From Fidelibacterota bacterium (GTDB taxonomy: Bacteria > Fidelibacterota > UBA8477): a DNA stretch of 64,000 nucleotides. The DNA lies in assembly GCA_021734065.1 (NCBI GenBank), contig JAIPJQ010000003.1, forward strand, positions 1,497 through 65,496, read 5' to 3'. The translations under genes and the position numbers were made by a program. Shown here piece by piece: positions 14,667 to 52,747 of the stretch. Each line of letters starts with the position of its first letter. Position 1 is the first letter of the stretch. The notes below the pieces were generated by a model. The model was not told the origin of the DNA. It saw only the letters and a program-made list of their open reading frames with translations, and made no database searches.

Positions 14667-14673
14667 AATAAAA

Positions 14674-15163: not shown

Positions 15164-15190
15164 TAAAGATTTGCAAACTCCGGCCGATAA
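15164..15190 (+). promoter_or_regulatory. sigma-28 (FliA) promoter of the HTH/REC-HD-GYP/motAB operon
   Basis: The plus strand reads TAAA-N15-GCCGATAA (exact consensus), 33 nt upstream of ATG 15223 and divergent from the flagellin promoter. Confidence 0.75.
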
Positions 15191-15222
15191 TGGATAATGG
15201 GAATGAAAAATCGAGACACACC

Positions 15223-16825: not shown

Positions 16826-16894
16826 AATGAGATAAATAAGAGAGATAACATGCTGATTAAACAAACAAGATTGAAAAAATAGGCCGGAGTTCCA

Positions 16895-17707: not shown

Positions 17708-17725
17708 CCGGGAAGACCCAAACTG

Positions 17726-18738: not shown

Positions 18739-19413
18739 CTATTCGGAATCGTCCAGGCTAATCATTTCCGGACCGCGGGTCGTATACTTCTCCGAGCGGA
18801 TCTGGATCATGTTTTCCAGTTTTTGAGTCACGGTTCTGATACGAGAGACATTATCCAGGATTTTCCGTAAACTACCTAAGACATTTTCCGGTAAATCTTT
18901 ATGTTTAAACAAGATCGTCTCGGCGTACATCTCGATAGCCTGAAGTGGATTATTAATTTCATGATTTGAAGTAATGGCCATCTGATTCACGAGTTTGATC
19001 GCCTGGAGCCTGTCATTTTCACGCTGCAATCTTAAAATGCGCAACCCGGTGCGCACCCGCGCTAAAAGCTCTTTGATATTGCACGGTTTGATGATGTAAT
19101 CGTCAGAACCCTTCTCGAATCCCAGGACAATATCTTCGATGTCATCCTTTGCTGTGAGCAGGATGAAGTAAGTCCGCTTCAATTCCGGATTTTGTTTGAT
19201 TGCCAGACACAGTTCTTCACCCGTCATTTCAGGCATCATCCAGTCTGAAATGACCAAATCCGGCTTGAATTCCTTCGCCCGCTCGTACGCTTCGCACCCA
19301 TCAGTGGTTACGGCAAATTCCACATTCTCATCCTTTAAAAACTTTTGCAGAAGCTTCGTGTACATGGCGTCATCCTCGGCGATGAGCACCTTCAAGGTTT
19401 CCGGGTGATTCAT
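18739..19413 (-). CDS. response-regulator receiver fused to a HisKA/DHp domain, no ATPase domain
   Basis: About 224 aa from ATG 19413. REC (LIAEDD, LVISDWMMPEMTG, LLTAKDD, IIKP), then the H-box ITSNHEINNPLQAIEMY, and the protein ends about 70 aa later. No N/G1/G2 ATP-binding boxes. Confidence 0.75.
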   Translation of the reverse strand: MNHPETLKVLIAEDDAMYTKLLQKFLKDENVEFAVTTDGCEAYERAKEFKPDLVISDWMMPEMTGEELCLAIKQNPELKRTYFILLTAKDDIEDIVLGFEKGSDDYIIKPCNIKELLARVRTGLRILRLQRENDRLQAIKLVNQMAITSNHEINNPLQAIEMYAETILFKHKDLPENVLGSLRKILDNVSRIRTVTQKLENMIQIRSEKYTTRGPEMISLDDSE

Positions 19414-19629: not shown

Positions 19630-19656
19630 TTATCGGTCAAAAATCAAGCTCCTTTA
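19630..19656 (-). promoter_or_regulatory. sigma-28-type promoter upstream of the REC-DHp gene
   Basis: The minus strand reads TAAA-N15-ACCGATAA (one mismatch to consensus). It overlaps the stop codon of the GT2-TPR gene, about 215 nt upstream of ATG 19413. Confidence 0.6.
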
Positions 19657-21158: not shown

Positions 21159-22142
21159 TCATCCGAGGGATTCGGTGATCTTTTTAAATTCATCAAGTCG
21201 TTTACCCCGACCCAATCGTATCTCCAACAGCTCTCGATTGACGTCATAATACTTATCCATCTGCTGATCCAGTTTGATGGTCAGAATACCGGTTCGCAGC
21301 AGGCGTTGAATTTCCGATTCAAAATCAGCCGGAGAATGCTTCAGGTCACGTTGAAGGCGATCGTTGAAATAGGTTAAAGCCAGATCATTGGCGGACCCCT
21401 GCTCAGACAACAGGCTTGCAATGAACTTGAGCAACTTTAATTCTTGACGTGATTGTTCTTCGAATTCAGGCGAGATACTTTTCCCGATACGACTGAAATA
21501 CTGCTCCCGGCAATATTGGGCGAGACTTTGGAAAGTTACGATATCGTTCACAATAAACTGACGACCTGCCTCATAATTAATTCCACTTTTCGCAATGCGG
21601 CTCAAGGTCAATTTATTCATCACCTTCTCCACAAAAGTCTGGGAGACATTGGTTAAAAAGGCAATGGTCTCGGCCGTTTCCTTCCAGGTAATCTGAAACT
21701 GGTTGAATTTGTCCGGGTCACGATGGGAAACCAGGTAGTAGAGCAGATAAACAACCTGTTTGCCTTGATCAGCCTTTGAGAGTGTGTTTTGGGTTGAATC
21801 CGCCTGACGTAAACGATCCACCAAAATTTCATAAAATGCCTGCATCCAGGAGGGGACCTCTTCCATCCGCTGTTCAAATAATATCTTGTTGATCTCGATA
21901 CATTGTGTTGTTGTCCTGGCGGTAATCGTTGCAGATCGTTGGCGCCCGTCCACCATGGACATCTCCCCAAAAATAGCGCCCGCTGTGAGTGTCGCTAATT
22001 TTACCGGTCGATTATCCACAACTTTCGTGACTTCCACCTCCCCACTCTGGAGGATGAACATGGATTTTCCATCATCACCTTCCCCACAAATTACATCGTC
22101 GGGCTGGTAGGTACGAAGGGCATTTTTTTCCACAAAAGACAT
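21159..22142 (-). CDS. cyclic-nucleotide-binding domain protein, Crp/Fnr-like with extra C-terminal region
   Basis: 327 aa. cNMP-binding motif GAIFGEMSMVDGRQRSATITA. A probable wHTH follows (ETIAFLTNVSQTFVEKVMNKLTLSRIA), then about 110 aa of unknown sequence. Confidence 0.7.
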   Translation of the reverse strand: MSFVEKNALRTYQPDDVICGEGDDGKSMFILQSGEVEVTKVVDNRPVKLATLTAGAIFGEMSMVDGRQRSATITARTTTQCIEINKILFEQRMEEVPSWMQAFYEILVDRLRQADSTQNTLSKADQGKQVVYLLYYLVSHRDPDKFNQFQITWKETAETIAFLTNVSQTFVEKVMNKLTLSRIAKSGINYEAGRQFIVNDIVTFQSLAQYCREQYFSRIGKSISPEFEEQSRQELKLLKFIASLLSEQGSANDLALTYFNDRLQRDLKHSPADFESEIQRLLRTGILTIKLDQQMDKYYDVNRELLEIRLGRGKRLDEFKKITESLG

Positions 22143-22147: not shown

Positions 22148-25100
22148 CTATGCTTTCTGTTGAGCCAAAACAGCCTGTTTCAATTCACGGGCTGATGGAT
22201 TTTCCGGATCCAGCGCAAGCACCTTCTCACTCCAGGATACCGCTTCATCCTTATTCCCCGCCTCTTCATGGAGCTGGGCCATCCGCAGTAAGCTGGGTAT
22301 ATCATCCGGGTTCCGATCCAGGATTGAGATATAGGTCTGAACACCACCAGTGTAATCTTCCTGTAGTAGCTGTATCTCTGCCAGATTACGCCGGGCATCG
22401 ATAAATGTCGGTTCCAGGTCGATGGCGTGGCTGATCAGAACATGAGCCTTTTCCAGATCCCCGGTTTCCGCTACAATAATACCACTTTGGTTATACGCCG
22501 CCGCATCGGCTGGATTGAACTTGAGAATTTTGTGCAGCAGACGTAGCGCTTCTTCAGAATGATCCAGGTTACGGGCGCAAATCGCCAGACCGAATAACGC
22601 CTCTTCGTCGAGTGGGTTTTCCCGGTAAATCTCCCTGAATAACGCATCCGCCTCGGGGAAATGTCCCTCGGCCAGTAACGCGGTCGCCCGCTTGATTTGA
22701 TAAGGATGCATCTCCTGCAAACCATTCCGAATTTCCAGCAATTCTTCGTAATCCACATCCGGCCATTTCGCGTGAAACAATTTCAGGCGTTCTTTGAGAT
22801 TTTGCTGGTAATCAATCCGGTTGGCTTTAAAGGTTTGGCTGCCAAAATGGTGCAACAGAACGGATTCATCAACCATGAGGGCCAAACCCTTTTCCCGAAT
22901 CCGTAAACTCAGATCATCATCTTCAAAATTACCCACACCAAACGAGGTGTCAAATCCACCGATCTCATCATAAAGTGATTTTTTCATCAATACCGCAAAA
23001 CCAGCCAGTCGGCGACGGGGTGTGAGCCGATTTTGATTTTGTTGATGGAGCGTTGAGGCGAATTGGAAAAATTCCTCGTCCGTGTCATAGGGTACTTCAG
23101 TCAACGCCTGACGACCACTGATATAGTTGGTGATCGGTCCCACAGCCCCGATATTTTCATCCCTTTCCAGCGATTCAACCAATGACCCAAGCCAACCTTC
23201 CGGAACGAGCACATCATTATTGAGCAGTATGATGTATTTTCCGCTGGCTATGGCAACACCTTGGTTATTGCCTTCAGCGAAGCCCATATTTTTCCTGTTT
23301 CTGATAAGCTTGTAATGCGGGTTCTTTTTAATCAGGGTATTCAGATATTTAACAGTGCCGTCAGTGGAGGCATTGTCCACAAAAACGATCTCAAACGGAA
23401 TGCTTGTATTTTTTTCAATCGATTTCATGCACTTTTTCGTGTATTCCAGAGCATTCCAGGTGAGCATGATGATTGAGACGAGGGGGTGGGCATCCGCATC
23501 CTTCATTTGGTCATGGTCATGATCAAACTTGGCTGTCATCAACTCCCGGATACGACCCGTACTCCAATTCCGCTCAACCAGGGCTCTCCCATTTTCAGAT
23601 AAGATTGTCCAGAGTGGTTGATCATGATACAGTTCAACCACAGATGCTACAAAATCTTCCGGTTTATCAGCCACCAGTGCTGTTTTACGGTGCTCCAAAC
23701 TCATACCTTCGGCACCGATCGAAGTAGTTACCACCGGGATCATCCAGGAGAGGGCTTCACCGATTTTACCCTTCATGCCGGCCCCATAGCGCAGTGGTGA
23801 AATAGAGATACGAGCCTTTTGAAGGTACGGTGTGAGATCTTCCACATAACCGGTCACGATTATCTGATCATTCGCCAGACTTTTGATCGATTCCGGAGGA
23901 TTGTTTCCCACGATGTACCACTTGATATCCGGAAGTTTTACCAGGATCGCCGGCCACATATTCTTATGAAAATGCAGAACAGCATCCACATTCGGGGTAT
24001 GGGAAAAATTCCCGACGAACAACAGATCGCTGGTTTGATCAAAGAGCCTTTCGACTGTCGGCATTTCATGGATATTGGGTATGATGTCGATGGGAATATT
24101 ACCGGTTTTGGGTGCAATGGATCGCCTGTCATTCTCGGTTACCACCCACACCTCATCCGCCTGATTATAAACGGCCAATTCCTGTTTTTGCTTTTGTTTG
24201 GCGATCTGTTTTAATTCTTGATCTTGTTTTAATTCCGCTTCCCGAATCTCACGAATAAAATGAATGTCAACCGTATCAACGATAATCTTAGTTCTGGATG
24301 TGATCTTGCGTAGACGTGGAATGAAATACTGGGCAATGTACCAGAAGGAAAGAATGGCGTAATCAAACTGGCGCGGTTTGAAAATCAGATCATAATTGAT
24401 GGGTGGAAATTCACGATTCAATTTGAATCCGGCCATTTTTAAGGCCTCGCCGTCATTCCCCCAGACCTCCACACCAATATTTTGTAGATCCCGAATGTAC
24501 CGGACATCGGGCGATAAAAGGCACGCCATATAGGTGACATGATAACCCATCTCACGCAAAATTTTGATATAACTAAACAATCGGAGGGAACCAGAAGCTC
24601 GATCATAGGCCGGCAGAAATTGATCAGCGATAAAGATATTACCCTTGATTCCACGCTGGGAAGCCCTTACTACATTCGATGGTCCCGGAGCAGATTGTTC
24701 TGACAATTCGGCTCGCCACTTGTCTAAAAATTTAGCAGCGTTGACTTTCTGGTAGCGTTTGAAACCAGTATTCAGATCGGTACCGGCCGTTTGCCCTTCA
24801 TAATGGACAACAACACTTGCCGGCTGGTAATAAACCTTAAATCCATTTTTTCGTACGGCAAAACAGAGGTCGGTATCTTCATAGTAAGCCGGAGAATAGC
24901 GTTTATCAAAACCACCGATAGTGTCCCACAACGATTTTCGAATCATTAGTGAAGCACCCGAGCAGTAATCCACCTCCCGGACAAAATTGAAAGCCGGGTG
25001 ACCCGGATTGTTACCACGGCCAAAATTCCAGCCACTCCCGTCCGAAAAAATGATCCCGCCGGCTTCCTGCAGCTTGCCATCGGGATACACGAGTTTTGAG

Positions 25101-28100
25101 CCAACTGCACCGCAATCAGGCCTTCTTTCAGCTAGTTGGACGAGCGATGTTAACCATCCGGGTTGAACCTCTGTATCGTTATTAAGGAAAAGTAAATATT
25201 CGCCCTCAGCTTCTGTTGCACCATGGTTACAGGCCTTAACAAACCCATGATTTTCATCATTAGAAACGACTTTATAATTCGAGATTTCGGACTGTTTTTG
25301 TAAAAAGTCGGGGGTATTGTCTGTGGACGCATTATCTATGATAATAACTTCATATTGGGAATATCTTGTATTCTCTTTAATCGCTTTAAGACACTTTTTT
25401 GTTAGCTCCAATTTATTGAAAACCGGAATAATGATAGACACTAAAGCTGTACGATCAACTTTTTTCTCAACGCTCCCCAAATCGCCGGAATGATCCAATT
25501 TACGATCGACAACTTTTTTTACGATCTTTTCCAAATCCACGTCAATCTCCAAGAATTTTTGGATACCTTTAAGAAGATCCGATCGGTTTTCTGAGAGAAG
25601 CGCTTTATAACTCACATTAAAGGATTCAAAAGGTTGGATATATTTGTTCATTCTTGCAATATACTCATCGTAGAGATTTTCGGCTTTGGCTCGCGTAAAT
25701 TTATTCCGCTTCATCAATGAACGAACAACGGCTTCTTTGTCCCTGTCCATTACGATTATTTTTAAGTTTTGCGGCAGAACTTTCCGCCATACAGGAAAAG
25801 TGAGACAGAGCCGAGGATCCTTCAGCGCTATCAAAGAATTATTTTGATAGCATCCGGTCACACGCTCCAACAACGGATCAACCTTGATAGATGAAATATT
25901 ATCTGGAGATGGCGGCTCATCCCAAGCACCGCCAGCGATTGATAATATCAGATCATTTGTTCCCACCACACTCTGTCGCTCAAAAAATCCATTAGGGTTG
26001 TCTGGTCGGGGACCCATAATATCATCCGATTCACCAATATAAAAACCGGCCTTATTGAGAACATTCATCATCATTGAGGTACCACTTCGATGCATTCCCA
26101 TAACCGTTACAAATTTCGTAATCGAATCAGACTGCATTTTTTTCTCATAGATATGGATTGTGCCGGCTTCATTTTCTCTGATCTGTTTTTGACTTTTAAT
26201 CTTAACGAAGTGATGTTGTCGAATAAATTGGTCTAAGTTTTCATCGACAAAATAATTCTCCGGGGTACGAATAACGAAATTTTTACGAGCCAGCACCAAT
26301 AAATTATTTAAAACTTTAGGTCGGGTTGAAACGGGCAGATGGTGATAAAGTCCTAAGAAAAGAACCGTATCATAAGCCGTTTTTAAATGACCTTGAGAGC
26401 TACTTAAAAAACGTTCCCAAGAAGAAAGATCGGCTTGATAAAGCTTAGCATTCGTTACATTATTTTTTCTCAGCAGTTCATTACCAAATTTCACTCGGAC
26501 GGCATCATACTCAAATCCATCAATCCATTTTGCCTGTCCTTCTGTTGCTAAAAATTTTGTAATCAACCCCTCTGCACACCCTGTATCAAGAATCGTGTGA
26601 TCCTTAACCTGCTCCTTTATTTGGTTTAAGCCTGAAATACGACGACTAAATGGTCTTTTGCCAAACAGTCCCAATTTGGGGTCTCTAAAATAGTGTGTCC
26701 ATTGTGGTCGCTCTAATAATTGGACGAGTATTTTACTGTACTTTCCCCAGGTATAGTTTTGCATATCACTAAATGCAGCTTGTCCAATCCTCACGCGTAA
26801 ATTATTATTATTCATCAATAATTTAATGCTTTTACCAATCTCATTTGGTGTGATGTTCTTTAAACAAAGGGAATTGGTATCGTTGGCAAAATCAATTGTA
26901 CCCGCCTGGGTCAAAATAACAGGTTTACCTACAGCCATGGCTTGTGCAGCGGTATTACACCAGCCAGCATGGGTTTCTGTTGTGACAACAATATCCATAG
27001 AACGATAGAAATTTGTCAGTTCGTCGTCGTAAAGTTTTCCCAAAAATTTAAGTCTGCCTTGATTTACAAAATGGTCTGCATCTCTATGTTGGATTCCATC
27101 TGATCCATATAGGCTCAATTTGACATTGTCTGGCAACTGATATAATGACTGAATTAATGGTATCGGGTTTTTCAATGCATATCCACCAATGTTCCATTCA
27201 CCCGCTTTTACTGACTTACCATCCACCAATACATTAGGTTTTGGGTTTGAGTGAATGGCACCGGGCAGGATATAAAAACTATCTGCCTGCAAATTGACAT
27301 AACTGTCCCAATGTGAATTATTGAAAATAACTACGTGTGGTTTAAAAACCTGATTAACTGCGTAGGCGCGTTTCTCAACACTTTTATCATTCAAGACATG
27401 CTGAATCCGGGTACCGAATCGATCATCAAGCAATAGTTCAATTTTTTTAACCTCCTTACCTTCTACACCCGCCCCAGGAATCATAACGGCATCCCACTTT
27501 GAAGTACCCAAATCAGATAAAGTCATAATGCGTTTTTCGAGATAGGGCCATTGTGTATTTGTCTTATTGGAGAGGGATAAAAATTCTACCTCATGCCCGA
27601 CTTTTTTCAAGGCTTTAGCAACCTCAATAAATCTGGCAATCCCACCATTAAGTGTAAATTCAAACCAGGCCACCAAAATTTTTAGAGTTTTTGTGTGTAT
27701 ATCTGAATTTAGTTCGGTAAATATTTTATCCAAATATTTGATATCCGAGGCTTTCAGTTCTGTACGATAATTACCAATTTTACCGTTTCTAACTTTAGGT
27801 GCTCCATTGCGGAGCCGTAACCAGGGATGTGGGAATTTACCACTTTGCTCAGTTTTTCGCATTTTTTCGATGGTTGAATTAGCAATTGCAGTGCGCAGTT
27901 CATCATCACTAACTGAAAAATTATAAAACTTGAGAAGTTTTCTTACTCCACCTTCAATATCGTGTTTACATTCTTCATAACTGAGGGTTAACACATTAAG
28001 TTCACTACTTAAGTGATGCCACATATCGCGAAAGCGTTTCAATGATTTGGCACCAAAATAATCATCTCGAATAAATTCTGAAATTGAACCTCTGTAGTTG

Positions 28101-28366
28101 AAAAAATCATCAAACCGACCTGTTATTTGGTGATACAGGCTTACAATTAAATCTCGGGGATCACGTTCCAGGTAGACAATTTTCTCCACATTTCGATAAT
28201 GTGTTAACCGCCTTGAAATGTCATAATTATGGGGAGGACAAGATCCATCATTGAACTCAAAACTATCATGTTGGAAAGTAATTTTGTTCTCCAGCCCCAA
28301 CTGAAAGAGGATGAATCTGATCCAAGACCTTCCTGATTTTGGGTATGAGATAAATTGTCTTTGCAT
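22148..28366 (-). CDS. 2072-aa multi-enzyme: sulfotransferase - GT-B - SAM methyltransferase - sulfotransferase - GT2 - GT-B - GT2 - TPR
   Basis: Uninterrupted ORF. Motifs: YPKSGRSW / ERDPRDLIVSLYH / RNGKIGNYR (aa 1-225); ETHAGWCNTAAQAMAVGKPVI (aa 229-553); ILDTGCAEG (aa 585-745); GMHRSGTS / KDPR (aa 750-960); VSIIIPVFN...IDNASTD...YEDTDLC (aa 975-1225); GAGMKGKIGEALSWMIPVV (aa 1240-1615); VSIIMLTWN...VDNASTDGT...FEDDDLS (aa 1627-1850); TPRs (aa 1885-2072). Confidence 0.8.
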   Translation of the reverse strand: MQRQFISYPKSGRSWIRFILFQLGLENKITFQHDSFEFNDGSCPPHNYDISRRLTHYRNVEKIVYLERDPRDLIVSLYHQITGRFDDFFNYRGSISEFIRDDYFGAKSLKRFRDMWHHLSSELNVLTLSYEECKHDIEGGVRKLLKFYNFSVSDDELRTAIANSTIEKMRKTEQSGKFPHPWLRLRNGAPKVRNGKIGNYRTELKASDIKYLDKIFTELNSDIHTKTLKILVAWFEFTLNGGIARFIEVAKALKKVGHEVEFLSLSNKTNTQWPYLEKRIMTLSDLGTSKWDAVMIPGAGVEGKEVKKIELLLDDRFGTRIQHVLNDKSVEKRAYAVNQVFKPHVVIFNNSHWDSYVNLQADSFYILPGAIHSNPKPNVLVDGKSVKAGEWNIGGYALKNPIPLIQSLYQLPDNVKLSLYGSDGIQHRDADHFVNQGRLKFLGKLYDDELTNFYRSMDIVVTTETHAGWCNTAAQAMAVGKPVILTQAGTIDFANDTNSLCLKNITPNEIGKSIKLLMNNNNLRVRIGQAAFSDMQNYTWGKYSKILVQLLERPQWTHYFRDPKLGLFGKRPFSRRISGLNQIKEQVKDHTILDTGCAEGLITKFLATEGQAKWIDGFEYDAVRVKFGNELLRKNNVTNAKLYQADLSSWERFLSSSQGHLKTAYDTVLFLGLYHHLPVSTRPKVLNNLLVLARKNFVIRTPENYFVDENLDQFIRQHHFVKIKSQKQIRENEAGTIHIYEKKMQSDSITKFVTVMGMHRSGTSMMMNVLNKAGFYIGESDDIMGPRPDNPNGFFERQSVVGTNDLILSIAGGAWDEPPSPDNISSIKVDPLLERVTGCYQNNSLIALKDPRLCLTFPVWRKVLPQNLKIIVMDRDKEAVVRSLMKRNKFTRAKAENLYDEYIARMNKYIQPFESFNVSYKALLSENRSDLLKGIQKFLEIDVDLEKIVKKVVDRKLDHSGDLGSVEKKVDRTALVSIIIPVFNKLELTKKCLKAIKENTRYSQYEVIIIDNASTDNTPDFLQKQSEISNYKVVSNDENHGFVKACNHGATEAEGEYLLFLNNDTEVQPGWLTSLVQLAERRPDCGAVGSKLVYPDGKLQEAGGIIFSDGSGWNFGRGNNPGHPAFNFVREVDYCSGASLMIRKSLWDTIGGFDKRYSPAYYEDTDLCFAVRKNGFKVYYQPASVVVHYEGQTAGTDLNTGFKRYQKVNAAKFLDKWRAELSEQSAPGPSNVVRASQRGIKGNIFIADQFLPAYDRASGSLRLFSYIKILREMGYHVTYMACLLSPDVRYIRDLQNIGVEVWGNDGEALKMAGFKLNREFPPINYDLIFKPRQFDYAILSFWYIAQYFIPRLRKITSRTKIIVDTVDIHFIREIREAELKQDQELKQIAKQKQKQELAVYNQADEVWVVTENDRRSIAPKTGNIPIDIIPNIHEMPTVERLFDQTSDLLFVGNFSHTPNVDAVLHFHKNMWPAILVKLPDIKWYIVGNNPPESIKSLANDQIIVTGYVEDLTPYLQKARISISPLRYGAGMKGKIGEALSWMIPVVTTSIGAEGMSLEHRKTALVADKPEDFVASVVELYHDQPLWTILSENGRALVERNWSTGRIRELMTAKFDHDHDQMKDADAHPLVSIIMLTWNALEYTKKCMKSIEKNTSIPFEIVFVDNASTDGTVKYLNTLIKKNPHYKLIRNRKNMGFAEGNNQGVAIASGKYIILLNNDVLVPEGWLGSLVESLERDENIGAVGPITNYISGRQALTEVPYDTDEEFFQFASTLHQQNQNRLTPRRRLAGFAVLMKKSLYDEIGGFDTSFGVGNFEDDDLSLRIREKGLALMVDESVLLHHFGSQTFKANRIDYQQNLKERLKLFHAKWPDVDYEELLEIRNGLQEMHPYQIKRATALLAEGHFPEADALFREIYRENPLDEEALFGLAICARNLDHSEEALRLLHKILKFNPADAAAYNQSGIIVAETGDLEKAHVLISHAIDLEPTFIDARRNLAEIQLLQEDYTGGVQTYISILDRNPDDIPSLLRMAQLHEEAGNKDEAVSWSEKVLALDPENPSARELKQAVLAQQKA

Positions 28367-36055: not shown

Positions 36056-36772
36056 TTATGTTACACGGCTGATATCGTTGGCAGCCTTGTTCATCACAGA
36101 GTCAATGGCACTCATGGCGCGCTGGGAGCTTTCAAACTGCCGCTGGAGCTCAATGAGTTGAACCATCTCCACAATCGGATTCACATTGGAACCTTCCAGT
36201 TGCCCCTGCAGAACTGTGCTGGCGGGAGAGGCCGCCGTGGTATAGCCTGAAGGAGCCTTGAACAGGTTGTCGCCGGCCTTTTTCAGACGCGATGGATCGT
36301 CTACCTGTACCACTTTTAATTGACCCATAAATTGACTATCAATATAAATCTCACCTGAATCGTTCACCGATATATCACCCGCGGAGAATTCATCCAGGGG
36401 CAGGTTGATGCTCCCGCTCATTCCCTGTACGTAATGATTGCTCCCGTTGACTAAAAAACCATCTTCGGACACACTAAAATGACCGTCCCGTGTGAGCGCC
36501 TCTCCTGACTCAGTCTCCACCACAAAAAAACCATCCCCCCGGATCGCCAGGTCAAAAGGATTGCCTGTTTGCTGTAGCGGTCCCTGTTTATAACTGGTTT
36601 GCACCTGGACTTTTGGGGCTTTTGAATTTTCGGTCAGAATATCAAAAAAAGCTGTTTCCTTCTTAAAGCCGTTCGTACTCACATTCGCGAGATTATTCGC
36701 TACAACATCATTTTTATGAATCTGTGCGGTCATGATTTTTTGTAGCATTATCAGGCTGGTATTCATATCCAT
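36056..36772 (-). CDS. flgF: flagellar rod protein FlgF (FlgG paralogue)
   Basis: 238 aa. ANNLANVSTNGFKKE and LEGSNVNPIVEMVQLIELQRQFESSQ. The start may be the third codon, ATG 36766. Confidence 0.8.
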   Translation of the reverse strand: MDMNTSLIMLQKIMTAQIHKNDVVANNLANVSTNGFKKETAFFDILTENSKAPKVQVQTSYKQGPLQQTGNPFDLAIRGDGFFVVETESGEALTRDGHFSVSEDGFLVNGSNHYVQGMSGSINLPLDEFSAGDISVNDSGEIYIDSQFMGQLKVVQVDDPSRLKKAGDNLFKAPSGYTTAASPASTVLQGQLEGSNVNPIVEMVQLIELQRQFESSQRAMSAIDSVMNKAANDISRVT

Positions 36773-36798: not shown

Positions 36799-36813
36799 GC
36801 AATTCGGGTGCCA
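36799..36813 (-). promoter_or_regulatory. sigma-54 type (-24/-12) promoter upstream of flgF
   Basis: The minus strand reads TGGCAC-CCGAA-TTGC, matching the TGGCAC-N5-TTGC consensus. It lies about 27 nt upstream of the flgF ATG, inside a 273-bp AT-rich intergenic region. Confidence 0.55.
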
Positions 36814-37045: not shown

Positions 37046-37873
37046 TTATTCCGCGAGTCGCGTCATTTGGATATCGTCGCAATAATCATCACTTAACGAG
37101 GTTTCAATTTTTTTCAACTGATAGGTGATTGATCGAATTCTGTATGCCTGTGCCAGGATGATTTCCAGATGGTCCTTAACTGCTGATTTTCCGTTGATCT
37201 GTTTGTCCAGTTTGAGCTGTAATAATTCGGCATTGCCAATGATGGAAGTGAGGGGGTTGTTAATTTCGTGGTTCACGGTGACGGTAATCTCGCCGATGGC
37301 GGCCATTCGTTCCGATTCCACCAATTCGGCCTGGGTCTGCTGTAGCTTCTCCAAACTGTCCTGGAGCTCCTGATTACGTGCCTGAAGTTTTTTTCGCAGG
37401 AACAGTTGTTCAGCGGCGATGGAAAACTGGTTGGCGATCAGGACGAATTTTTCCAGATCCTCTTCCCGATAAACACCTTCCCGGGAATGACCCAGGTTCA
37501 TCACTCCCAACAACCTTTCACCCGCCCAGAGCGGGAGTGAAACAAAGGAATTAAAGAGATTCGCCTGGCCTGGCCTGGATTTCCTGAGTGAGGAAAGAAT
37601 GACCGGTTCCCTTTGATTTGCAATCCATCCCGACAATCCAGGACCGTTGTCAAATGAAACATCACGTATCAGGTCAACAACCGAATCGCCAATTTGGTAT
37701 TTGTGCTCCAGTTTTCCGCTGGCAGGGTCTTTCAGGAAGAGTGTCGCACAATCAAAAGAGACAGCGGACAGCAGGAGATCAAACAGCGCCCCAAAGAGTT
37801 GTTGATCCGATTCCCAGCTTTTTTGCAGGAGGGTCGCCAGGGTGACCAGAGGATTTTTATCGACATATACCAT
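37046..37873 (-). CDS. GAF domain fused to HisKA/DHp domain, no ATPase domain
   Basis: 275 aa. GAF region (aa 20-150), coiled coil, then H-box ITVTVNHEINNPLTSIIGNAELL. The protein ends 73 aa after the His. No N/G boxes. Confidence 0.75.
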   Translation of the reverse strand: MVYVDKNPLVTLATLLQKSWESDQQLFGALFDLLLSAVSFDCATLFLKDPASGKLEHKYQIGDSVVDLIRDVSFDNGPGLSGWIANQREPVILSSLRKSRPGQANLFNSFVSLPLWAGERLLGVMNLGHSREGVYREEDLEKFVLIANQFSIAAEQLFLRKKLQARNQELQDSLEKLQQTQAELVESERMAAIGEITVTVNHEINNPLTSIIGNAELLQLKLDKQINGKSAVKDHLEIILAQAYRIRSITYQLKKIETSLSDDYCDDIQMTRLAE

Positions 37874-37905
37874 GCGCTGTCTTTTTTTCTCCTTACTTAA
37901 ACGTC

Positions 37906-39150
37906 CTAATAGTGATGGTGGATCATCCCAATTAAATCCGTTAGTTGTTTGCGTTCATCGGAATGACCCGTGGGTAGCCGTAGCGTGAATTCGGTCCCTT
38001 TACCCGCCCAACTTTTAACGAAGATATCACCCCCCATGGAATCGACAATATTCTTGCAGATTGACAAGCCCATGCCGGTATTGCGCCCATTTTTCTTCGT
38101 GGAAAAGAAGGGGTCGAAAATTTTCCGGACGATCTCGTCGGGAATCCCGGCAGCATTGTCGGTGATATGTATTTCAACCCATCGACCATCCCGTGCAAGC
38201 GATGAAACATGGACAAACCTGTCTCTCTCCGAATCAGCCAAAACACCATAATCCAAATCGTCAAAGGCATCCCGTACATTTGCTAATAAATTCACTAAAA
38301 CCTGTTCAATATATAACGGATTAGCCAAGATGTACGGCAAGCTGTCATCTTTATCAACCCGGACCTCAATCTTGCGCTTTTCAAAGTCAGATTGAATCAG
38401 ATTGACAGCCATATCCACAACGGAATTGACATTCACTGCGGATAACAAATTTTCCTCCGTCTGATGCGAAAATTCGCGCATGGAATCAATGATCTTGGCC
38501 ATCCGATCAATGAGCTCATACCCATCATGTACCAATTGTTTCTTCTTTTCCGGATGATCAGGCTTCTCAATCTGGTTGTGAAGCATCTCCAGCTTTAAGC
38601 GTAAAATGCTCAAAGGTTGACTGATTTCATGCACAAGACCCACAGACAATTCTCCCAATGCCTTCAGCCGGTCGCGCGAAATAGTCGCTAACTGGTGCTG
38701 CCGTAGCTCCTTTTCCAGGATTTTCTGTTGGGTGATATCCTTGGCGGTAATAATAATGTACTGGACCCGACCCTTACGGTCCTGCACCAGATTGAAATTG
38801 AGATAGACCGGCGTTACCTGGTCACCGGCACGGAAACCGGCCTCAATGTTGTCTAAAACTCCCTTGTTGATGTATTGAACCACGCTGGATATTTGTTGCC
38901 CCGGCTCAGGATCATCACTCCAATCCCCCGGACAATCGGTGATGTATCGATCAATGGATTGTCCCACCAATGCTTCGAGGGTCGTGTCCAATAAGCTCAG
39001 GGCACTGCGGTTGGCATATTGAATATGACCGATGACATCTGCAATCAGGATGACATCCTGTACACTTTCCAGAATGGCAATCGTGGTTGAATAGTCTTTC
39101 AAATCCTGAGCATTCCCAGAATTGCGGGGAGAACGTTTATTGGGGGGCAT
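37906..39150 (-). CDS. PAS-domain sensor histidine kinase (complete HisKA + HATPase_c)
   Basis: 414 aa. PAS (ILIADVIGHIQYANRSALSLL), H-box LVHEISQPLS, N box NLLANVRDAF, G boxes DNAAGIP and GMGLSICK. Confidence 0.88.
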   Translation of the reverse strand: MPPNKRSPRNSGNAQDLKDYSTTIAILESVQDVILIADVIGHIQYANRSALSLLDTTLEALVGQSIDRYITDCPGDWSDDPEPGQQISSVVQYINKGVLDNIEAGFRAGDQVTPVYLNFNLVQDRKGRVQYIIITAKDITQQKILEKELRQHQLATISRDRLKALGELSVGLVHEISQPLSILRLKLEMLHNQIEKPDHPEKKKQLVHDGYELIDRMAKIIDSMREFSHQTEENLLSAVNVNSVVDMAVNLIQSDFEKRKIEVRVDKDDSLPYILANPLYIEQVLVNLLANVRDAFDDLDYGVLADSERDRFVHVSSLARDGRWVEIHITDNAAGIPDEIVRKIFDPFFSTKKNGRNTGMGLSICKNIVDSMGGDIFVKSWAGKGTEFTLRLPTGHSDERKQLTDLIGMIHHHY

Positions 39151-39229: not shown

Positions 39230-39514
39230 TTATCGCGATCTATCCTCTATGATTTTAAATATGGGAAAGGGATCCATTTCTTGTATGAGGACGGAAACCT
39301 CTTTCCGCTCTTCCAGATCCAGATTCGAATAAGCTATGATGTTGTAGCCGTAGATGCGTAGTATACACTTTGTTGGCGTTAATCGCCTGACAATTCTCCC
39401 CGGGATTTCCATCCCCTTCCTTAAGCGATTTAAAAGCGGATTCAATGATCCTTTCACGAAAAATCGTAATGGCTCGCCTGTGTCTGTGCGGTGTTGGCCA
39501 TCCGGTGAGGTCAT
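39230..39514 (-). CDS. hypothetical 94-aa protein, beta-rich
   Basis: ORF with an ATGA overlap to the upstream membrane-protein gene, co-directional with the flagellar genes. I could not assign a domain. Confidence 0.5.
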   Translation of the reverse strand: MTSPDGQHRTDTGEPLRFFVKGSLNPLLNRLRKGMEIPGRIVRRLTPTKCILRIYGYNIIAYSNLDLEERKEVSVLIQEMDPFPIFKIIEDRSR

Positions 39515-40434
39515 GATTCATCTCTCTCCTGCATCCAGATCATTAGTCGTGCCTCGTCATAGGTGATGCCCTGTTGCTTCATGGCCAGTCGAATCTCTGC
39601 GTCCGGATCTTTTCCCTGCACGGATTCGGAGGAATTAAATGGCATCCGCGGCTCCGATGATGGCGCTCCTGGCATCTCGGGATTCACATCCTTTGACGGT
39701 TGCGGATCCTCTACTGTTACCGGTTTGGGCGAAAGATTCTTATCACCGTCCTGACGGCGGGTCAGGCGTACCGCCACCATGATTAATCCGGTTACCAAAA
39801 CGATGATCAATGCTGCCAGCAACATTGCCTTGAGGAATAACGATTTTCCTCTCAGACCGGCAATATAGGCTGATATCCCCCGTGATTTTGACGGAACTGG
39901 TGCGGTGGAGGGAATGACATGGGTTACGCTCGGCTCCACCGGCTTAGGTGATTTCCGGACCGGTGGATTATAAATATTGATGAATATCTGATTCTCATCG
40001 TAAGCATAGAGAGGTTGAACCTTTGAAAAACCGGTGGTCTGGACCGCCAGGGACAGGGTTTGTGAATCAGGAAATGTGGCGCTGAATTTCGCCGGATGTT
40101 CGCCTCTGAATATGCCCCGGGTTCTCTTCTGCAGGCGACTGGTATCCAGTGGTGCGATGACAAGACTGAATTTTTTACCGCCCGAATCCATGATACATGA
40201 CACCAGGGGGGGTGGAAGGGTATCCAGGACACCGGTAATCACGATACGCCTGAATCCGGGGAATTCCTCGGATGATATCCCTGCTTGGATTTGACCCATG
40301 AGAGGGAGTGTTGCAACAAGGAGAAAAATCAATCCTATCCAGATCGACAGGCTCCATCGATGGAGGCAATGGTTTCCGGTGTCAGATTTTGACATCAACA
40401 TGTTGTCCCTTTTTCTTCTTCGGCGCATTTTCAT
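39511..40434 (-). CDS. hypothetical bitopic membrane protein (N-in, about 160-aa periplasmic domain, second TM, Pro/Ser-rich cytoplasmic tail)
   Basis: 307 aa. Basic N-terminus MKMRRRRKR. TM1 WIGLIFLLVATLPL and TM2 AMLLAALIIVLVTGLIMVAV. The start may be one of the internal Met codons at 40401 or 40395. Confidence 0.6.
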   Translation of the reverse strand: MKMRRRRKRDNMLMSKSDTGNHCLHRWSLSIWIGLIFLLVATLPLMGQIQAGISSEEFPGFRRIVITGVLDTLPPPLVSCIMDSGGKKFSLVIAPLDTSRLQKRTRGIFRGEHPAKFSATFPDSQTLSLAVQTTGFSKVQPLYAYDENQIFINIYNPPVRKSPKPVEPSVTHVIPSTAPVPSKSRGISAYIAGLRGKSLFLKAMLLAALIIVLVTGLIMVAVRLTRRQDGDKNLSPKPVTVEDPQPSKDVNPEMPGAPSSEPRMPFNSSESVQGKDPDAEIRLAMKQQGITYDEARLMIWMQERDES

Positions 40435-40696
40435 CGGTCTCCTCGCTGGACTTTATCACCGCTCCACCCTCACTGGCTTCAAAGGCATCTTCCTGTAAAT
40501 TATTGTCGGGGTGTGAAGTATCATGTTGGGGTGAATTTGAGTCTTCCCGCTCTTTCGGGCTCTTCTTACTCTTTGAATCACTGGTATCCTTACCCTGTTT
40601 TGCCTGATTACGCTCACCACCCCGTGATGGTTTTCCTATCGACTGAATGGAATTTGATGCGGATAAGGGGGGTGTGTTTCCAAGCTCGGATGACAT
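40382..40696 (-). CDS. hypothetical 104-aa highly charged, low-complexity protein immediately downstream of fliA
   Basis: Starts 12 nt after the fliA stop. Rich in S/K/E/D/N/P with no hydrophobic core. Coding status is inferred from operon context only. Confidence 0.4.
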   Translation of the reverse strand: MSSELGNTPPLSASNSIQSIGKPSRGGERNQAKQGKDTSDSKSKKSPKEREDSNSPQHDTSHPDNNLQEDAFEASEGGAVIKSSEETDENAPKKKKGQHVDVKI

Positions 40697-40708: not shown

Positions 40709-41551
40709 TTATTTCCGGGTGGGTGCCAAATTTTTCTTCAGCTCCCCCAGGGTCTCCTTGAGGAGCTGGGAAATCCGGGATTCTGACACGCCAAGTACAC
40801 GTCCAATATCAATCAATGTTAATTCTTCATAGTAATAAAGTGCCAGAATCAAACGATTTCTCTCCGGTAACCTGGCGATTAGCTGTTTTAATTCTTCTTT
40901 TAATCCCATGGCAATGAATTCCTCTTCAGGTGAAAGCTGATCTTCATCAACGACCAGATCTTTCCGTACAACCGTCTCTGTTTCATCTTTAAATATTTCA
41001 TCATCGAGCGAAACGGATTGTTGCTGCCAAATCAGCATCCGTATCGATTCATAATCCCGGGCGGTGAGACCCATTTTTTCCTGAACTTCCGCATGGGTCG
41101 GTTCACGCCCCAGCTCGTTGCTTAAGGATTCCTGGGTATCCAATAAAATTCTAACCTGTTTGGATTGGGAGCGGGTAAGGACACCCGTTTTTCGTACGGC
41201 ATCAATAATTTCACCCTGGATTCTGAGATAAGCAAAGGTCTTGAACGTGGTGTGATGCCCCGCTTGATATCTTTCGAGCGCGTCCAGTAATCCCAGGATG
41301 CCCGAATGATACATGTCCTCCATCTGAAGGGCACCGGTTTGTGGCAGATGAATCCGCTTAATAATGTGTTTCACTAACGGCAGAAAGGCCCGCACGGCCT
41401 GGTCTTTGGTTTCACTGGTTGGATTGGCGAGATAAGCTTTCACCCATGCTTCACCATCCAATTCCTGCCGGCCGGCAATCACGCTTGGCCGGCCACCCGA
41501 TTCCACTGCAGAATCTGCAGCCTGTTGAAAATATGCGGAGCGGTGTTTCAC
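40709..41551 (-). CDS. fliA: flagellar sigma factor FliA (sigma-28)
   Basis: 280 aa. Region 2 (DMYHSGILGLLDALERY), region 3 and region 4.2 HTH (ELTLIDIGRVLGVSESRISQL). Follows flhF-flhG. Confidence 0.9.
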   Translation of the reverse strand: MKHRSAYFQQAADSAVESGGRPSVIAGRQELDGEAWVKAYLANPTSETKDQAVRAFLPLVKHIIKRIHLPQTGALQMEDMYHSGILGLLDALERYQAGHHTTFKTFAYLRIQGEIIDAVRKTGVLTRSQSKQVRILLDTQESLSNELGREPTHAEVQEKMGLTARDYESIRMLIWQQQSVSLDDEIFKDETETVVRKDLVVDEDQLSPEEEFIAMGLKEELKQLIARLPERNRLILALYYYEELTLIDIGRVLGVSESRISQLLKETLGELKKNLAPTRK

Positions 41552-52019: not shown

Positions 52020-52747
52020 TTCTCAAATTCCTCCGGGTTGTTGCAATCTTAGCGTGGTTTTTTTCCTTCAGAACAGCACCATTTTATCGGTGGTGCCGGG
52101 AAAATCTCAAATCCCATGCCATTGAAAGGGGTGGGAATTTTCATCCATACGCGAATGTGCTACGTCAGGGATACAGGAAAGTAAAATTGTTCCCGTCTTT
52201 AAAATTACATCCAGGCGACACCAGACTTAGCCTATTTATTATTAATATCTTATAGGAATTTATTTTGGATATAATTCCGGAATAAATCATCGATTAATCG
52301 GTGATTTATTTTAAATAAAAATTTTTTTGGCGTGGGCAGAAAGCCAGATTGGCTCTCGTGATAGGGTGTGTTTTGTTCCGGGTAAGGAAATATTTTCCGT
52401 CAAGGTGATCTCACTGTCTCCATGGCCGGATCAGGAGGATTTCTCCCGGGTTCCGACTTGGGAGAAGGGAGCCCCACGGGTAAACCCATGTTATCCATTA
52501 CAAGACCCGCCTCCCCGTGTAAGCCCGGGTTTTTCGCGAAGGAATATGAATTTGAACGGTCCTTTTCTGTATCAACGCTTTTTTTATCAAATCACGCCTG
52601 GGTTCAATACTTCACACAGCGCTAAGCGGAGCCAAGCGGGGATGTTTGTAGAGATTTTTTTTAACCGCGATAACTGAGAGATGTAATGACACAATGAAAT
52701 GAAAATTGGAGTCCCCTGATTGCAGAAGGACAACGTTCCAGATGAAC
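52020..52747. other. 728-bp non-coding gap between motB and fliL (AT-rich palindromes plus GC-rich, structure-prone core)
   Basis: No minus-strand ORF of 60 aa or more. The only long plus-strand ORF has a non-protein-like composition. Contains a 30-nt near-perfect palindrome (52281-52310) and paired CCCGGG elements. Confidence 0.6.

What the first reader, a model, noticed from the sequence alone, without database searches (positions are those of the whole stretch)
37046..39150. Complete PAS histidine kinase followed by a GAF-DHp protein that lacks any ATPase domain
The 414-aa PAS kinase has all H/N/G boxes. Its downstream neighbour starts 32 nt later and has a GAF domain, a coiled coil and a canonical H-box (VNHEINNPLTSIIGNAELL, His-202). 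It terminates 73 aa after the histidine, too short for a CA domain, and no N/G1/G2 boxes are visible. A DHp-only sensor next to a full kinase suggests three options: trans-phosphorylation, heterodimeric DHp pairing, or a phosphotransfer or phosphatase role comparable to Spo0B or ChpT. The pair sits between the fliA operon and the sigma-54-type flgF promoter, which points to a role in flagellar gene control.
Basis: partly seen in the sequence, partly recalled or inferred. Interest (0 to 1): 0.65.

Follow-up and report, generated by a model that had tools for sequence, protein, structure and literature searches.

The report
Kinase-less sensor conserved in flagellar clusters
The short GAF protein is a real, conserved signalling protein that keeps the phospho-accepting histidine helix of a bacterial sensor kinase but has no ATP-using domain, and it sits in the flagellar gene cluster of about ten bacterial phylum-level lineages, so it probably removes or relays phosphate rather than making it.

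Summary
Window 37906-39150(-) encodes a 414-aa PAS-HisKA-HATPase_c kinase. After a 32-nt gap, 37046-37873(-) encodes a 275-aa GAF-HisKA protein with His-202 and a stop 73 aa later. There is no CA domain and no CA remnant downstream.

It is not a truncation. About 98 homologue clusters and 51 non-redundant genomic loci all end 67-95 aa after the His. The H-box NHEINNPL and a tail Tyr are nearly invariant.

The conserved partner is the flagellar cluster, not the kinase. In 35 of 37 loci with enough flank, from about ten FCB-group lineages, the gene lies downstream of flhA-flhF-(flhG)-fliA. Wherever flgF follows (21 of 21), a sigma-54 -24/-12 element lies between them.

The PAS kinase neighbour is lineage-specific. 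Its ATP-binding motifs are degenerate in some genomes, and elsewhere it is replaced by a pseudokinase or is absent. Trans-phosphorylation by the neighbour therefore cannot be the general mechanism.

The same CA-less "DHp + tail" module also follows REC, REC-PAS, PAS and HAMP inputs, including a second copy in this window (REC-DHp, 18739-19413).

Best reading, which is inferred: a GAF-gated DHp dimer that dephosphorylates a flagellar response regulator or shuttles phosphate to or from it. The architecture class has been noted before (Galperin 2018), but no function has been tested.

The parts
37046..37873 (-). GAF-DHp gene (275 aa), a CA-less sensor-DHp protein
   Evidence: ORF. Pfam GAF_2 24-153 and HisKA 199-253, no HATPase_c. 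Conserved family. Structure model.
37415..37804 (-). GAF sensor domain (aa 24-153)
   Evidence: Pfam. Closest solved GAF domains by sequence are Aquifex Nlh1/Nlh2 and PtsP; by fold they include Lcd1, PtsP and a sigma-54-regulator GAF. Ligand unknown.
37112..37465 (-). Signalling helix plus DHp hairpin (aa 137-254), predicted helices 137-224 and 230-254
   Evidence: DHp sequence is closest to FixL, ZraS and LvrB DHp.
37268..37270 (-). Codon of His-202 in the H-box NHEINNPL. H+1 is Glu and H+4 is Asn, which is the HisKA phosphatase motif.
   Evidence: Sequence. N201, H202, I204, N205, N206 and L208 are invariant; E203, P207 and T209 are >=90% conserved in 46 homologues.
37049..37111 (-). C-terminal tail (aa 255-275) with conserved Tyr-264 and Met-270. 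It aligns with the DHp-CA linker and first CA strand of canonical kinases.
   Evidence: The Tyr is invariant across 17 proteins with six input architectures.
37874..37905 (-). 32-nt spacer with AAGGAG between the kinase stop and the GAF-DHp start (operon junction)
   Evidence: Orthologous junctions are mostly 2-17 nt.
37906..39150 (-). PAS-HisKA-HATPase_c kinase (414 aa), with a conserved C-terminal extension after the CA domain
   Evidence: Best NCBIfam hits are AtoS, EspC, ZraS and NtrB types.
36799..36813 (-). Sigma-54-type -24/-12 element TGGCACCCGAATTGC upstream of flgF
   Evidence: An equivalent site is present in 21/21 non-redundant loci, against a background of 0.047 per kb per strand.
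36056..36772 (-). flgF, first gene of the flgFGAHI... operon
   Evidence: Pfam; gene table.
40709..41551 (-). fliA (sigma-28), the conserved upstream anchor of the family
   Evidence: Pfam.
39230..40434 (-). Two conserved ORFs of unknown function between fliA and the kinase: a 307-aa protein with hydrophobic, putative membrane-spanning segments (family c4) and a 94-aa protein (family c6)
   Evidence: No Pfam or NCBIfam hit. c4 lies directly upstream of GAF-DHp in the clade without the kinase.
52107..52121 (-). Second sigma-54-type element (TGGCATGGGATTTGA) upstream of fliL. It may be the promoter of the long fliL...fliA...kinase/GAF-DHp unit.
   Evidence: Only two such sites occur on the minus strand of the window. 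That this is one operon is inferred.
18739..19413 (-). Paralogous CA-less module: REC-DHp protein (224 aa) with the same NHEINNPL box and Y...M..L tail

Best explanation
The 275-aa ORF belongs to an old, conserved family of kinase-less sensor proteins built as GAF, signalling helix, DHp hairpin and a 20-aa tail. The family is a fixed component of the flagellar gene cluster in FCB-group bacteria, downstream of flhA-flhF-flhG-fliA and, in several lineages, immediately upstream of the sigma-54-dependent flgF operon. With no CA domain it cannot autophosphorylate. I propose that it forms the usual DHp four-helix-bundle dimer and docks a receiver domain. Under control of whatever the GAF domain senses, it would then remove the phosphoryl group through the intact HisKA phosphatase motif H-E-x-x-N, or accept and return it on His-202. 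That would set the phosphorylation level of a conserved flagellar response regulator, most plausibly an NtrC-type sigma-54 activator of the FlgR/FleR kind. In this genome the upstream PAS kinase, encoded 32 nt away (2-17 nt in most orthologous loci), could supply the opposing kinase activity, giving a split system with two separate sensors (PAS for kinase, GAF for phosphatase or relay). Shown: the architecture, its conservation, the absence of a CA domain, and the flagellar and sigma-54 context. Inferred: dimerisation, receiver docking, phosphatase or relay chemistry, and the identity of the regulator.
For: The protein is real and not truncated: about 98 homologue clusters of 264-300 aa are all GAF+HisKA without HATPase_c, and all ORFs in 51 loci stop 67-95 aa after the His. 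The phospho-chemistry residues are under selection: N201, H202, I204, N205, N206 and L208 are invariant, and E203, P207 and T209 are >=90% conserved. HEINNPL is invariant across 17 module carriers. The H+1 Glu and H+4 Asn form the HisKA phosphatase motif (established knowledge: Huynh, Noriega and Stewart 2010; Willett and Kirby 2012). Galperin 2018 (PMC5847659) proposes this same activity for HisKA-only proteins. The function does not depend on an adjacent kinase: the PAS kinase is absent or degenerate in many lineages. The partner appears conserved: the alpha-1 positions known to set receiver specificity (H+7 and H+11) are >=90% conserved across phyla (T209, G213), whereas the PAS kinase differs at H+7/+11/+12 and varies between orthologues. 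The flagellar role rests on fliA being upstream in 35/37 loci and a sigma-54 element before flgF in 21/21. The DHp is closest to the AtoS/ZraS/NtrB-type kinases that pair with NtrC-family activators. A REC-sigma-54 activator sits next to flgB in a related genome (L092). The module behaves as an output domain: REC-DHp is translationally coupled to a full kinase in L091, and a REC-PAS-DHp fills the same fliA-to-flgF slot in L086 and L090.
Against: There is no biochemical evidence of any kind. No response regulator could be assigned: the window's contig ends 873 bp upstream of flgB without an activator gene, and the receivers near the family differ by lineage. Conservation of the His and of Glu+1 is equally expected for a phosphorelay intermediate or for a substrate of a CA domain acting in trans. 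Phosphatase activity does not strictly need the His, so its invariance slightly favours a phospho-accepting role. A few orthologues have Lys at H+1 (L019, L022), which should impair phosphatase chemistry. Tight translational coupling to a second DHp protein in two lineage groups fits a hetero-complex model as well. The sigma-54 activator link is by context only.
Confidence: 0.45

Rival explanations
1. Phosphorelay intermediate or trans-phosphorylated substrate. His-202 is phosphorylated by the CA domain of the adjacent PAS kinase or by a phospho-receiver, and passes the group on to a terminal regulator, in the manner of Spo0B or ChpT.
For: The His is invariant and Glu is retained at H+1, the general base for phosphorylation by a CA domain. 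The neighbouring kinase in this window is intact and separated by only 32 nt. P2CS classifies HisKA-only proteins as phosphotransfer proteins (PMC2716373). REC-DHp fusions exist in which a receiver could feed the His directly.
Against: Many lineages have no adjacent kinase. In L001, L022 and all Ignavibacteria/Zixibacteria loci the neighbour's ATP-binding boxes are degenerate. Known bundle-type phosphotransferases (Spo0B, ChpT) carry a pseudo-CA domain, have no sensor and do not keep the full H-box. This family keeps the phosphatase Asn at H+4, which a pure relay does not need.
Confidence: 0.25
2. Kinase modulator by DHp heteromerisation. GAF-DHp pairs through its DHp with the neighbouring kinase-like protein and switches that protein's output, as RetS does with GacS, RocA with CovS or DivL with CckA. 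The histidine chemistry would be secondary.
For: The gene is translationally coupled to a second DHp-containing gene in two independent arrangements: kinase upstream with mostly 2-17-nt gaps, and pseudokinase downstream with 4-8-nt overlaps. The PAS kinase orthologues keep a conserved C-terminal extension even where their ATP-binding boxes have decayed, which suggests a docking role. Precedents are in the literature (PMC8498467, PMC7028121, PMC4211667).
Against: Marinimicrobia clade 2, Latescibacterota, Gemmatimonadota/Glassbacteria and Cloacimonadota have no adjacent DHp partner yet keep the protein and its H-box unchanged. Near-invariance of H-E-I-N-N-P-L is not explained by a purely structural pairing role. 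Pseudokinases such as DivL have lost the His.
Confidence: 0.2
3. Split kinase. A separately encoded CA domain docks on the DHp, perhaps through the conserved tail that corresponds to the first CA strand, and restores autophosphorylation.
For: The tail aligns with the DHp-CA linker and first CA strand and has its own invariant Tyr.
Against: No stand-alone HATPase_c gene was found next to any family member examined. The only small GHKL protein seen (L086) is an RsbW-type kinase paired with a STAS protein. The HAMP-DHp genes sit among unrelated genes.
Confidence: 0.04
4. Pseudogene or assembly artefact: a kinase truncated by a frameshift or premature stop.
For: None beyond the short length.
Against: The identical sequence occurs on several independent assemblies. 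All 51 loci end at the same point. No CA remnant lies downstream. Only 273 bp remain before flgF, and they hold a conserved promoter.
Confidence: 0.01

Closest known systems
'Nonenzymatic HK-like proteins' / 'HisKA, no HATPase' class (Galperin et al. 2018, PMC5847659; 'possible incomplete HK' in P2CS)
   Same: The architecture is identical: an N-terminal PAS or GAF sensor and a C-terminal HisKA dimerisation domain with a conserved His, with no HATPase domain. The same candidate functions were proposed (phospho-acceptor, phosphotransfer or receiver phosphatase).
   Different: That class was described for archaea (Archaeoglobi, Methanomicrobia) as a census category, with no conserved genomic context and no tested function. 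This is a bacterial family with a fixed flagellar-cluster position, a diagnostic N-H-E-I-N-N-P-L box and a conserved Tyr-containing tail.
Spo0B (Bacillus) and ChpT (Caulobacter) histidine phosphotransferases
   Same: They are dimeric helical-bundle proteins derived from histidine kinases. They carry a phosphorylatable His and cannot use ATP.
   Different: Both retain a C-terminal alpha/beta pseudo-CA domain and have no sensor domain. Their H-box is not conserved beyond the His (own knowledge). Here there is a GAF sensor, no CA-like domain and a complete H-box including the phosphatase motif.
Bifunctional HisKA kinases in phosphatase mode (EnvZ, NtrB, PleC)
   Same: They have the same DHp type and the same H-E/D-x-x-N/T motif. 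An isolated EnvZ DHp domain retains phosphatase activity (own knowledge: Zhu et al. 2000, PNAS).
   Different: Those proteins also have a CA domain and switch between kinase and phosphatase. This protein could only ever perform the kinase-independent reactions.
FlgS/FlgR (Campylobacter, Helicobacter) and FleS/FleR or FlrB/FlrC (Pseudomonas, Vibrio) flagellar two-component systems
   Same: These are cytoplasmic PAS-type kinases encoded in flagellar clusters that control sigma-54-dependent rod and hook genes. The window's PAS kinase, the sigma-54 elements before flgF and fliL, and the REC-sigma-54 activator beside flgB in L092 fit this scheme.
   Different: None of those systems is known to include a CA-less DHp partner. 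No activator gene is adjacent in the window. Orthology of the PAS kinase to FlgS/FleS was not shown; the best NCBIfam hits are AtoS, EspC and ZraS.
Pseudokinase modulators of real kinases: RetS-GacS, RocA-CovS, DivL-CckA
   Same: These are kinase-derived proteins that act without their own autophosphorylation and regulate signalling through contacts with a partner kinase.
   Different: They keep a CA or pseudo-CA domain and usually lose or do not need the His. GAF-DHp has no CA at all, keeps the His, and often has no neighbouring kinase.
CheZ (CheY-P phosphatase encoded just after fliA-cheY in Pseudomonas and Vibrio flagellar clusters)
   Same: CheZ is a dimeric four-helix-bundle protein that inserts an amide side chain into a receiver active site. 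Its gene lies immediately downstream of fliA (own knowledge). This is an analogy of position and possible mechanism.
   Different: There is no sequence relationship: Pfam gave no CheZ hit. CheZ has no sensor domain and no histidine box.

Membership tests
Classical HisKA-type sensor histidine kinase | DHp (HisKA) domain with H-box histidine | tested here: met
   Pfam HisKA 199-253, E=3.7e-9. H-box NHEINNPL with His-202.
Classical HisKA-type sensor histidine kinase | C-terminal CA (HATPase_c) domain with N, G1, F and G2 boxes | tested here: not met
   No HATPase_c hit at E<=0.1. Only 73 aa follow the His. The model shows no alpha/beta domain. No remnant lies downstream. The same holds in 51 loci.
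HisKA-only 'nonenzymatic HK-like' proteins (Galperin 2018 / P2CS) | N-terminal PAS or GAF sensor domain | tested here: met
   GAF_2 24-153, E=5.5e-15.
HisKA-only 'nonenzymatic HK-like' proteins (Galperin 2018 / P2CS) | C-terminal HisKA with conserved His and no HATPase domain | tested here: met
   The class definition was read.
Spo0B/ChpT-type histidine phosphotransferase | Helical-hairpin bundle carrying the phosphorylatable His | tested here: met
   Predicted helices 137-224 and 230-254, with His-202 on the first. Dimerisation is inferred.
Spo0B/ChpT-type histidine phosphotransferase | C-terminal alpha/beta pseudo-CA domain | tested here: not met
   Only a 20-aa tail follows helix 2.
Spo0B/ChpT-type histidine phosphotransferase | Accepts phosphate from a receiver Asp and passes it to another receiver | not testable with these tools
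   Requires in vitro phosphotransfer profiling.
HPt (monomeric four-helix-bundle) phosphotransfer domain | Match to the Hpt domain model | tested here: not met
   No Hpt family among the Pfam hits at E<=0.1.
HisKA receiver phosphatase (DHp-borne activity) | Acidic residue at H+1 and Asn or Thr at H+4 | tested here: met
   H202-E203-I204-N205-N206. E203 is >=90% conserved and N206 is invariant. Rare Lys at H+1 occurs in L019 and L022.
HisKA receiver phosphatase (DHp-borne activity) | Accelerates dephosphorylation of a cognate phospho-receiver | not testable with these tools
   Biochemical assay needed. The cognate receiver was not identified.
FlgS/FleS/FlrB-type flagellar kinase (for the 414-aa neighbour) | Cytoplasmic PAS-HisKA-HATPase_c kinase encoded in a flagellar cluster with sigma-54-dependent flagellar promoters | tested here: met
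FlgS/FleS/FlrB-type flagellar kinase (for the 414-aa neighbour) | Cognate REC-AAA+ sigma-54 activator (FlgR/FleR/FlrC), usually adjacent | tested here: inconclusive
   None in the 64-kb window or up to the contig end. One is present beside flgB in the related L092.

The most novel reading that the evidence does not exclude
The CA-less 'N-H-E-I-N-N-P-L DHp plus Tyr tail' is a distinct, previously unrecognised two-component output module. It would be a stand-alone, sensor-gated receiver phosphatase or phospho-shuttle that can be driven by GAF, REC, REC-PAS, PAS or HAMP inputs. Its GAF- or REC-PAS-linked form would be a core regulator of sigma-54-dependent flagellar assembly throughout the FCB superphylum, filling the role that FlgS/FleS-type kinases or FliX-type factors play elsewhere.
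Probability: 0.3. Interest if true: 0.75.

Novelty: new variant of a known kind. Interest (0 to 1): 0.6.

Why it matters
HisKA-only proteins are routinely annotated as histidine kinases although they cannot be kinases, and to my knowledge no member has a demonstrated function. This family offers a well-defined test case. It has one conserved genomic slot in the flagellar cluster of about ten phylum-level lineages, invariant candidate catalytic residues (His-202, Glu-203, Asn-206, Tyr-264), and swappable inputs. In some genomes it comes with a natural control, an intact or decayed partner kinase. Showing that it is a dedicated, ligand-gated phosphatase or relay would define a new kind of two-component output. 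It would also add a missing regulator to flagellar gene control in Marinimicrobia, Ignavibacteria, Gemmatimonadota, Calditrichota and their relatives, whose flagellar regulation is essentially unstudied.

Tried and rejected
1. Frameshifted CA remnant downstream: rejected. Every frame has stops and tblastn is empty at E<=10.

2. Pseudogene or artefact: rejected.

3. An apparent correlation between the PAS kinase and the sigma-54 promoter before flgF: withdrawn. My filter required GC at -12. The kinase-less clade has a perfectly conserved TGGCAC-N5-TTGA element.

4. Split kinase with a separate CA gene: no support in L066 or L086.

5. Finding the response regulator on the window's own contig: the FliG look-up failed. 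The FliJ look-up reached the contig end, which has 873 bp of non-coding sequence before flgB and no activator.

6. Exhaustive representative search with the full-length profile: swamped by giant multi-GAF proteins. Only about 16 family representatives appear in the top 150, so the family could not be sized.

7. Census with the DHp+tail profile: returned only 31 short, mostly fragmentary proteins. None has HATPase_c, so this is weak support only.

8. Fold search: only generic GAF matches and no unexpected fold.

9. Literature searches for a characterised homologue or a flagellar GAF-HisKA protein: none found.

10. Receivers downstream in Ignavibacterium: generic NtrC1, Spo0F, FleR or CheY-like, so not diagnostic.

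11. Multimer modelling of the kinase with GAF-DHp was not possible with the single-chain tool.
Full report
OBSERVATION.
Window 37906-39150(-) encodes a 414-aa protein with PAS, HisKA (167-231) and HATPase_c (278-394, E=5.9e-23). Its motifs are H-box VHEISQPL (His-174), N-box NLLANVRDA, G1 DNAAGIP (a variant), F-box FDPFFSTK and G2 GMGLSI. After a 32-nt spacer carrying AAGGAG, 37046-37873(-) encodes a 275-aa protein. It has a GAF domain (24-153) and a HisKA domain (199-253), with no HATPase_c hit even at E<=0.1. His-202 sits in VNHEINNPLTSIIGNAELL, and the stop is 73 aa later.

An AlphaFold2 model built on 46 homologues (mean pLDDT 81) shows a GAF domain and one continuous helix 137-224. A second helix at 230-254 and a short, low-confidence hairpin follow. 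Nothing resembles a CA domain.

The 273-bp spacer before flgF has 4-6 stops in each frame, and tblastn with CA domains finds nothing at E<=10.

IT IS A CONSERVED FAMILY, NOT A TRUNCATION.
A search of 5.8 billion proteins returned about 98 clusters of 264-300 aa, all GAF+HisKA without HATPase_c. In an alignment of 46 of them, N201, H202, I204, N205, N206 and L208 are invariant. E203, P207 and T209 are >=90% conserved, and the tail carries conserved Tyr-264 and Met-270.

A scan of one genome per species found 80 loci. In every locus with a full-length match and a complete ORF, the ORF stops 67-95 aa after the His. Labels on the records span these groups:
- Fidelibacterota/Neomarinimicrobiota
- Caldithrix and Hatepunaea
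- Gemmatimonadales and Glassbacteria
- Latescibacterota and Zixiibacteriota
- Cloacimonadota, Ignavibacteria and Delongbacteria

The window itself matches a contig of GCA_021734585.1. Its closest named homologue (73% identity) is from a Marinimicrobia MAG.

WHAT IS CONSERVED AROUND IT.
I ran tblastn with the window's flagellar proteins against all loci. Of 37 non-redundant loci with at least 6 kb of upstream flank, 35 have fliA upstream on the same strand within 6 kb, and 33 also have flhA. The exceptions are L009 and L048.

Clustering of the intervening genes, with Pfam on representatives, gives lineage-specific arrangements:
- A. Part of Marinimicrobia, plus Caldithrix and Hatepunaea: fliA, a small ORF, a ~300-aa unknown protein with hydrophobic, putative membrane-spanning segments, a ~100-aa unknown protein, PAS kinase, GAF-DHp, flgFGAHI. 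This is the window's type.
- A'. A second Marinimicrobia clade: fliA, the same ~300-aa unknown protein, GAF-DHp, flgF. There is no kinase.
- B. Latescibacterota: fliA, FliK-like, FlhB-C-like, GAF-DHp, flgF.
- C. Gemmatimonadota/Glassbacteria: fliA, HDOD, TPR, unknown, GAF-DHp.
- E. Ignavibacteria/Zixibacteria: fliA, DUF2225, two or three PilZ/YcgR-like genes, unknown, GAF-DHp. These are followed by a ~590-aa PAS-GAF-HisKA protein, single-domain receivers and an MCP-like fragment.

The only constant is GAF-DHp itself.

Wherever flgF follows, a sigma-54-type -24/-12 element lies 37-122 nt before it. This holds in 21 of 21 non-redundant loci, against a background of 0.047 per kb per strand. An earlier, stricter scan missed the TTGA variant in clade A' and suggested a correlation with the kinase. 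That was an artefact.

In the window only two such sites exist on the minus strand, before flgF (36813) and before fliL (52121). The kinase and GAF-DHp may therefore be the last genes of a sigma-54-driven fliL...fliA unit. This is inferred.

THE NEIGHBOURING KINASE IS NOT THE KEY.
In type A the kinase-to-GAF-DHp junction is mostly 2-17 nt. In type E the GAF-DHp-to-neighbour junction overlaps by 4-8 nt. Translational coupling to a second DHp protein has thus arisen in two arrangements.

The neighbour's ATP-binding boxes are intact in the window and in most type A genomes. They are degenerate in L001 (G1, G2) and in the Caldithrix MAG L022 (N, G1, G2). They are absent from all seven type E proteins aligned. 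Types A', B and C have no neighbour at all.

The type A kinases share a conserved C-terminal extension, DE(R/Q)xQLxNLIxML, after the CA domain. It persists even where the catalytic boxes have decayed.

The alpha-1 positions that determine receiver specificity in HisKA kinases are H+7, +11 and +12 (established knowledge: Skerker et al. 2008). They read T, G, N in GAF-DHp; T209 and G213 are >=90% conserved across phyla. They read S, L, K in the PAS kinase, and there they vary between orthologues. A shared receiver is therefore not predicted.

A GENERAL CA-LESS MODULE.
The window contains a second such protein at 18739-19413(-). It is REC+HisKA, 224 aa, with the same SNHEINNPL box and a Y...M..L tail. 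It too is a conserved family. In L092 it keeps its neighbourhood of a second motAB pair, a REC-HD-GYP protein and flagellin genes. In a Kryptoniota genome it overlaps the end of a full PAS-GAF kinase gene.

Among the remaining loci, every ORF carrying NHEINNPL ends 72-131 aa after the His. Inputs are HAMP (Chitinivibrionales), PAS, REC-PAS or GAF.

In L086 and L090 a REC-PAS-DHp protein occupies the same fliA-to-flgF slot. In L086 it is preceded by an RsbW-like kinase, a STAS protein and a free GAF protein.

Across 17 carriers with six architectures, HEINNPL and the tail Tyr are invariant, and Asn at His-1 is nearly so. The canonical relatives I inspected (P0099, P0107, P0109) have Ala at that position.

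The tail aligns with the DHp-CA linker and first CA strand of the canonical relative P0099.

MECHANISM.
Shown: no CA domain; intact and selected H-box, including the HisKA phosphatase motif H-E-x-x-N; a canonical DHp hairpin; a sensor domain; a fixed flagellar context next to sigma-54 promoters.

Inferred: the protein dimerises through the DHp and docks a receiver domain. Gated by the GAF domain, it then removes the phosphoryl group or exchanges it via His-202. The DHp is closest to the AtoS/ZraS/NtrB-type kinases that partner NtrC-family activators. A REC-sigma-54 activator lies beside flgB in L092. A FlgR/FleR-like activator is therefore the most plausible target, but none is on the window's contig.

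In this genome the intact PAS kinase may supply the kinase half of a split kinase/phosphatase pair. I put about 0.45 on phosphatase or phospho-shuttle acting on a receiver. I put 0.25 on a relay or trans-phosphorylated intermediate, and 0.2 on heteromeric modulation of the neighbour. Split-kinase and artefact readings get a few percent. These are not fully exclusive.

COMPARISON AND NOVELTY.
The bare architecture has been noted before. Galperin et al. 2018 (PMC5847659) list archaeal 'nonenzymatic HK-like proteins' and suggest phospho-acceptor or phosphatase roles, without tests. P2CS files HisKA-only proteins under phosphotransfer proteins.

By those architectural criteria this protein is a member of that class. 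It fails membership of classical kinases because it has no CA domain. It fails membership of Spo0B/ChpT because it has no pseudo-CA domain and does have a sensor.

I found no paper on this bacterial family or on a flagellar GAF-HisKA protein. What appears new:
- the conserved flagellar-cluster position across about ten lineages
- the diagnostic N-H-E-I-N-N-P-L plus Tyr-tail signature
- the swappable inputs at one genomic slot
- the repeated pairing with active or decayed kinase-like proteins

I rate it a new variant of a known kind, with interest 0.6.

Noticed in passing
window 18739-19413 (-): A second CA-less DHp protein: REC + HisKA, 224 aa, with H-box SNHEINNPL and a Y...M..L tail. It belongs to a conserved family of about 220-240 aa in Marinimicrobia/Fidelibacterota and Kryptoniota. 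In L091 it overlaps the end of a full PAS-GAF kinase gene.
   Followed up: partly
window 15073-18586 (+): An HTH_17 protein, a REC-HD-GYP (HD_5) protein and a second MotA/MotB pair lie together next to the REC-DHp gene. The same block recurs in L092. It may be a c-di-GMP-linked alternative stator module.
   Followed up: partly
window 37906-37970 (-), C-terminus of the PAS kinase; loci L001, L011-L023: PAS kinase orthologues share a conserved extension of about 20 aa after the CA domain, DE(R/Q)xQLxNLIxML. It is retained even where the N/G1/G2 boxes have decayed (L001, L022), which suggests a docking motif.
   Followed up: no
window 39230-40696 (-): Three ORFs of unknown function lie between fliA and the kinase: 104 aa, 307 aa with hydrophobic (putative membrane-spanning) segments, and 94 aa. 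None has a Pfam or NCBIfam hit. The 307-aa and 94-aa families are conserved in related flagellar clusters, and the 94-aa family also lies directly upstream of GAF-DHp in L034, L035 and L043.
   Followed up: partly
window 22148-28366 (-): A 2072-aa multi-domain glycosyltransferase/sulfotransferase ORF sits inside the flagellar supercluster, in a region of lower G+C (0.38-0.43 against about 0.48). It follows fliW-csrA and may be a flagellin glycosylation island.
   Followed up: no
window 52107-52121 (-) and L094 about 830-845: Further sigma-54-type elements with TTGA at -12: one before fliL in the window, and TGGCACAACTCTTGA about 30 nt before flgB at the contig end. They suggest that most early and middle flagellar operons here depend on sigma-54.
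   Followed up: partly
window about 14836-14861 (-): A sigma-28-type promoter, TAAAGTTTTTTTGAAGCCAGCCGATA, lies upstream of the flagellin gene (13842-14741). This is consistent with FliA control of late genes. An unusually long FlgM-domain protein (170 aa) is at 10232-10744.
   Followed up: no
L086 7905-10327: In a 'Cytophagia'-labelled MAG, the fliA-to-flgF slot holds an RsbW-like HATPase_c_2 kinase, a STAS protein, a free 148-aa GAF protein and a REC-PAS-DHp(+tail) protein. This amounts to a partner-switching module joined to the CA-less DHp module.
   Followed up: partly
L040 10774-19143: In an Ignavibacterium MAG, GAF-DHp is followed by a PAS-GAF-HisKA pseudokinase, an MCP-signal fragment and two single-domain receivers (three in related loci). 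A 1393-aa Ser/Thr-kinase-TPR-GAF-sigma-54 activator fusion follows.
   Followed up: partly
window 21159-22142 (-): A 327-aa cNMP-binding-domain protein lies inside the flagellar supercluster, next to a TPR-glycosyltransferase (19644-21089).
   Followed up: no
window 1288-9259 (+): A bacterial alpha-2-macroglobulin (1851 aa) is followed by a PBP1C-type penicillin-binding protein. This is the known A2M-PbpC pair and is unrelated to the finding.
   Followed up: no
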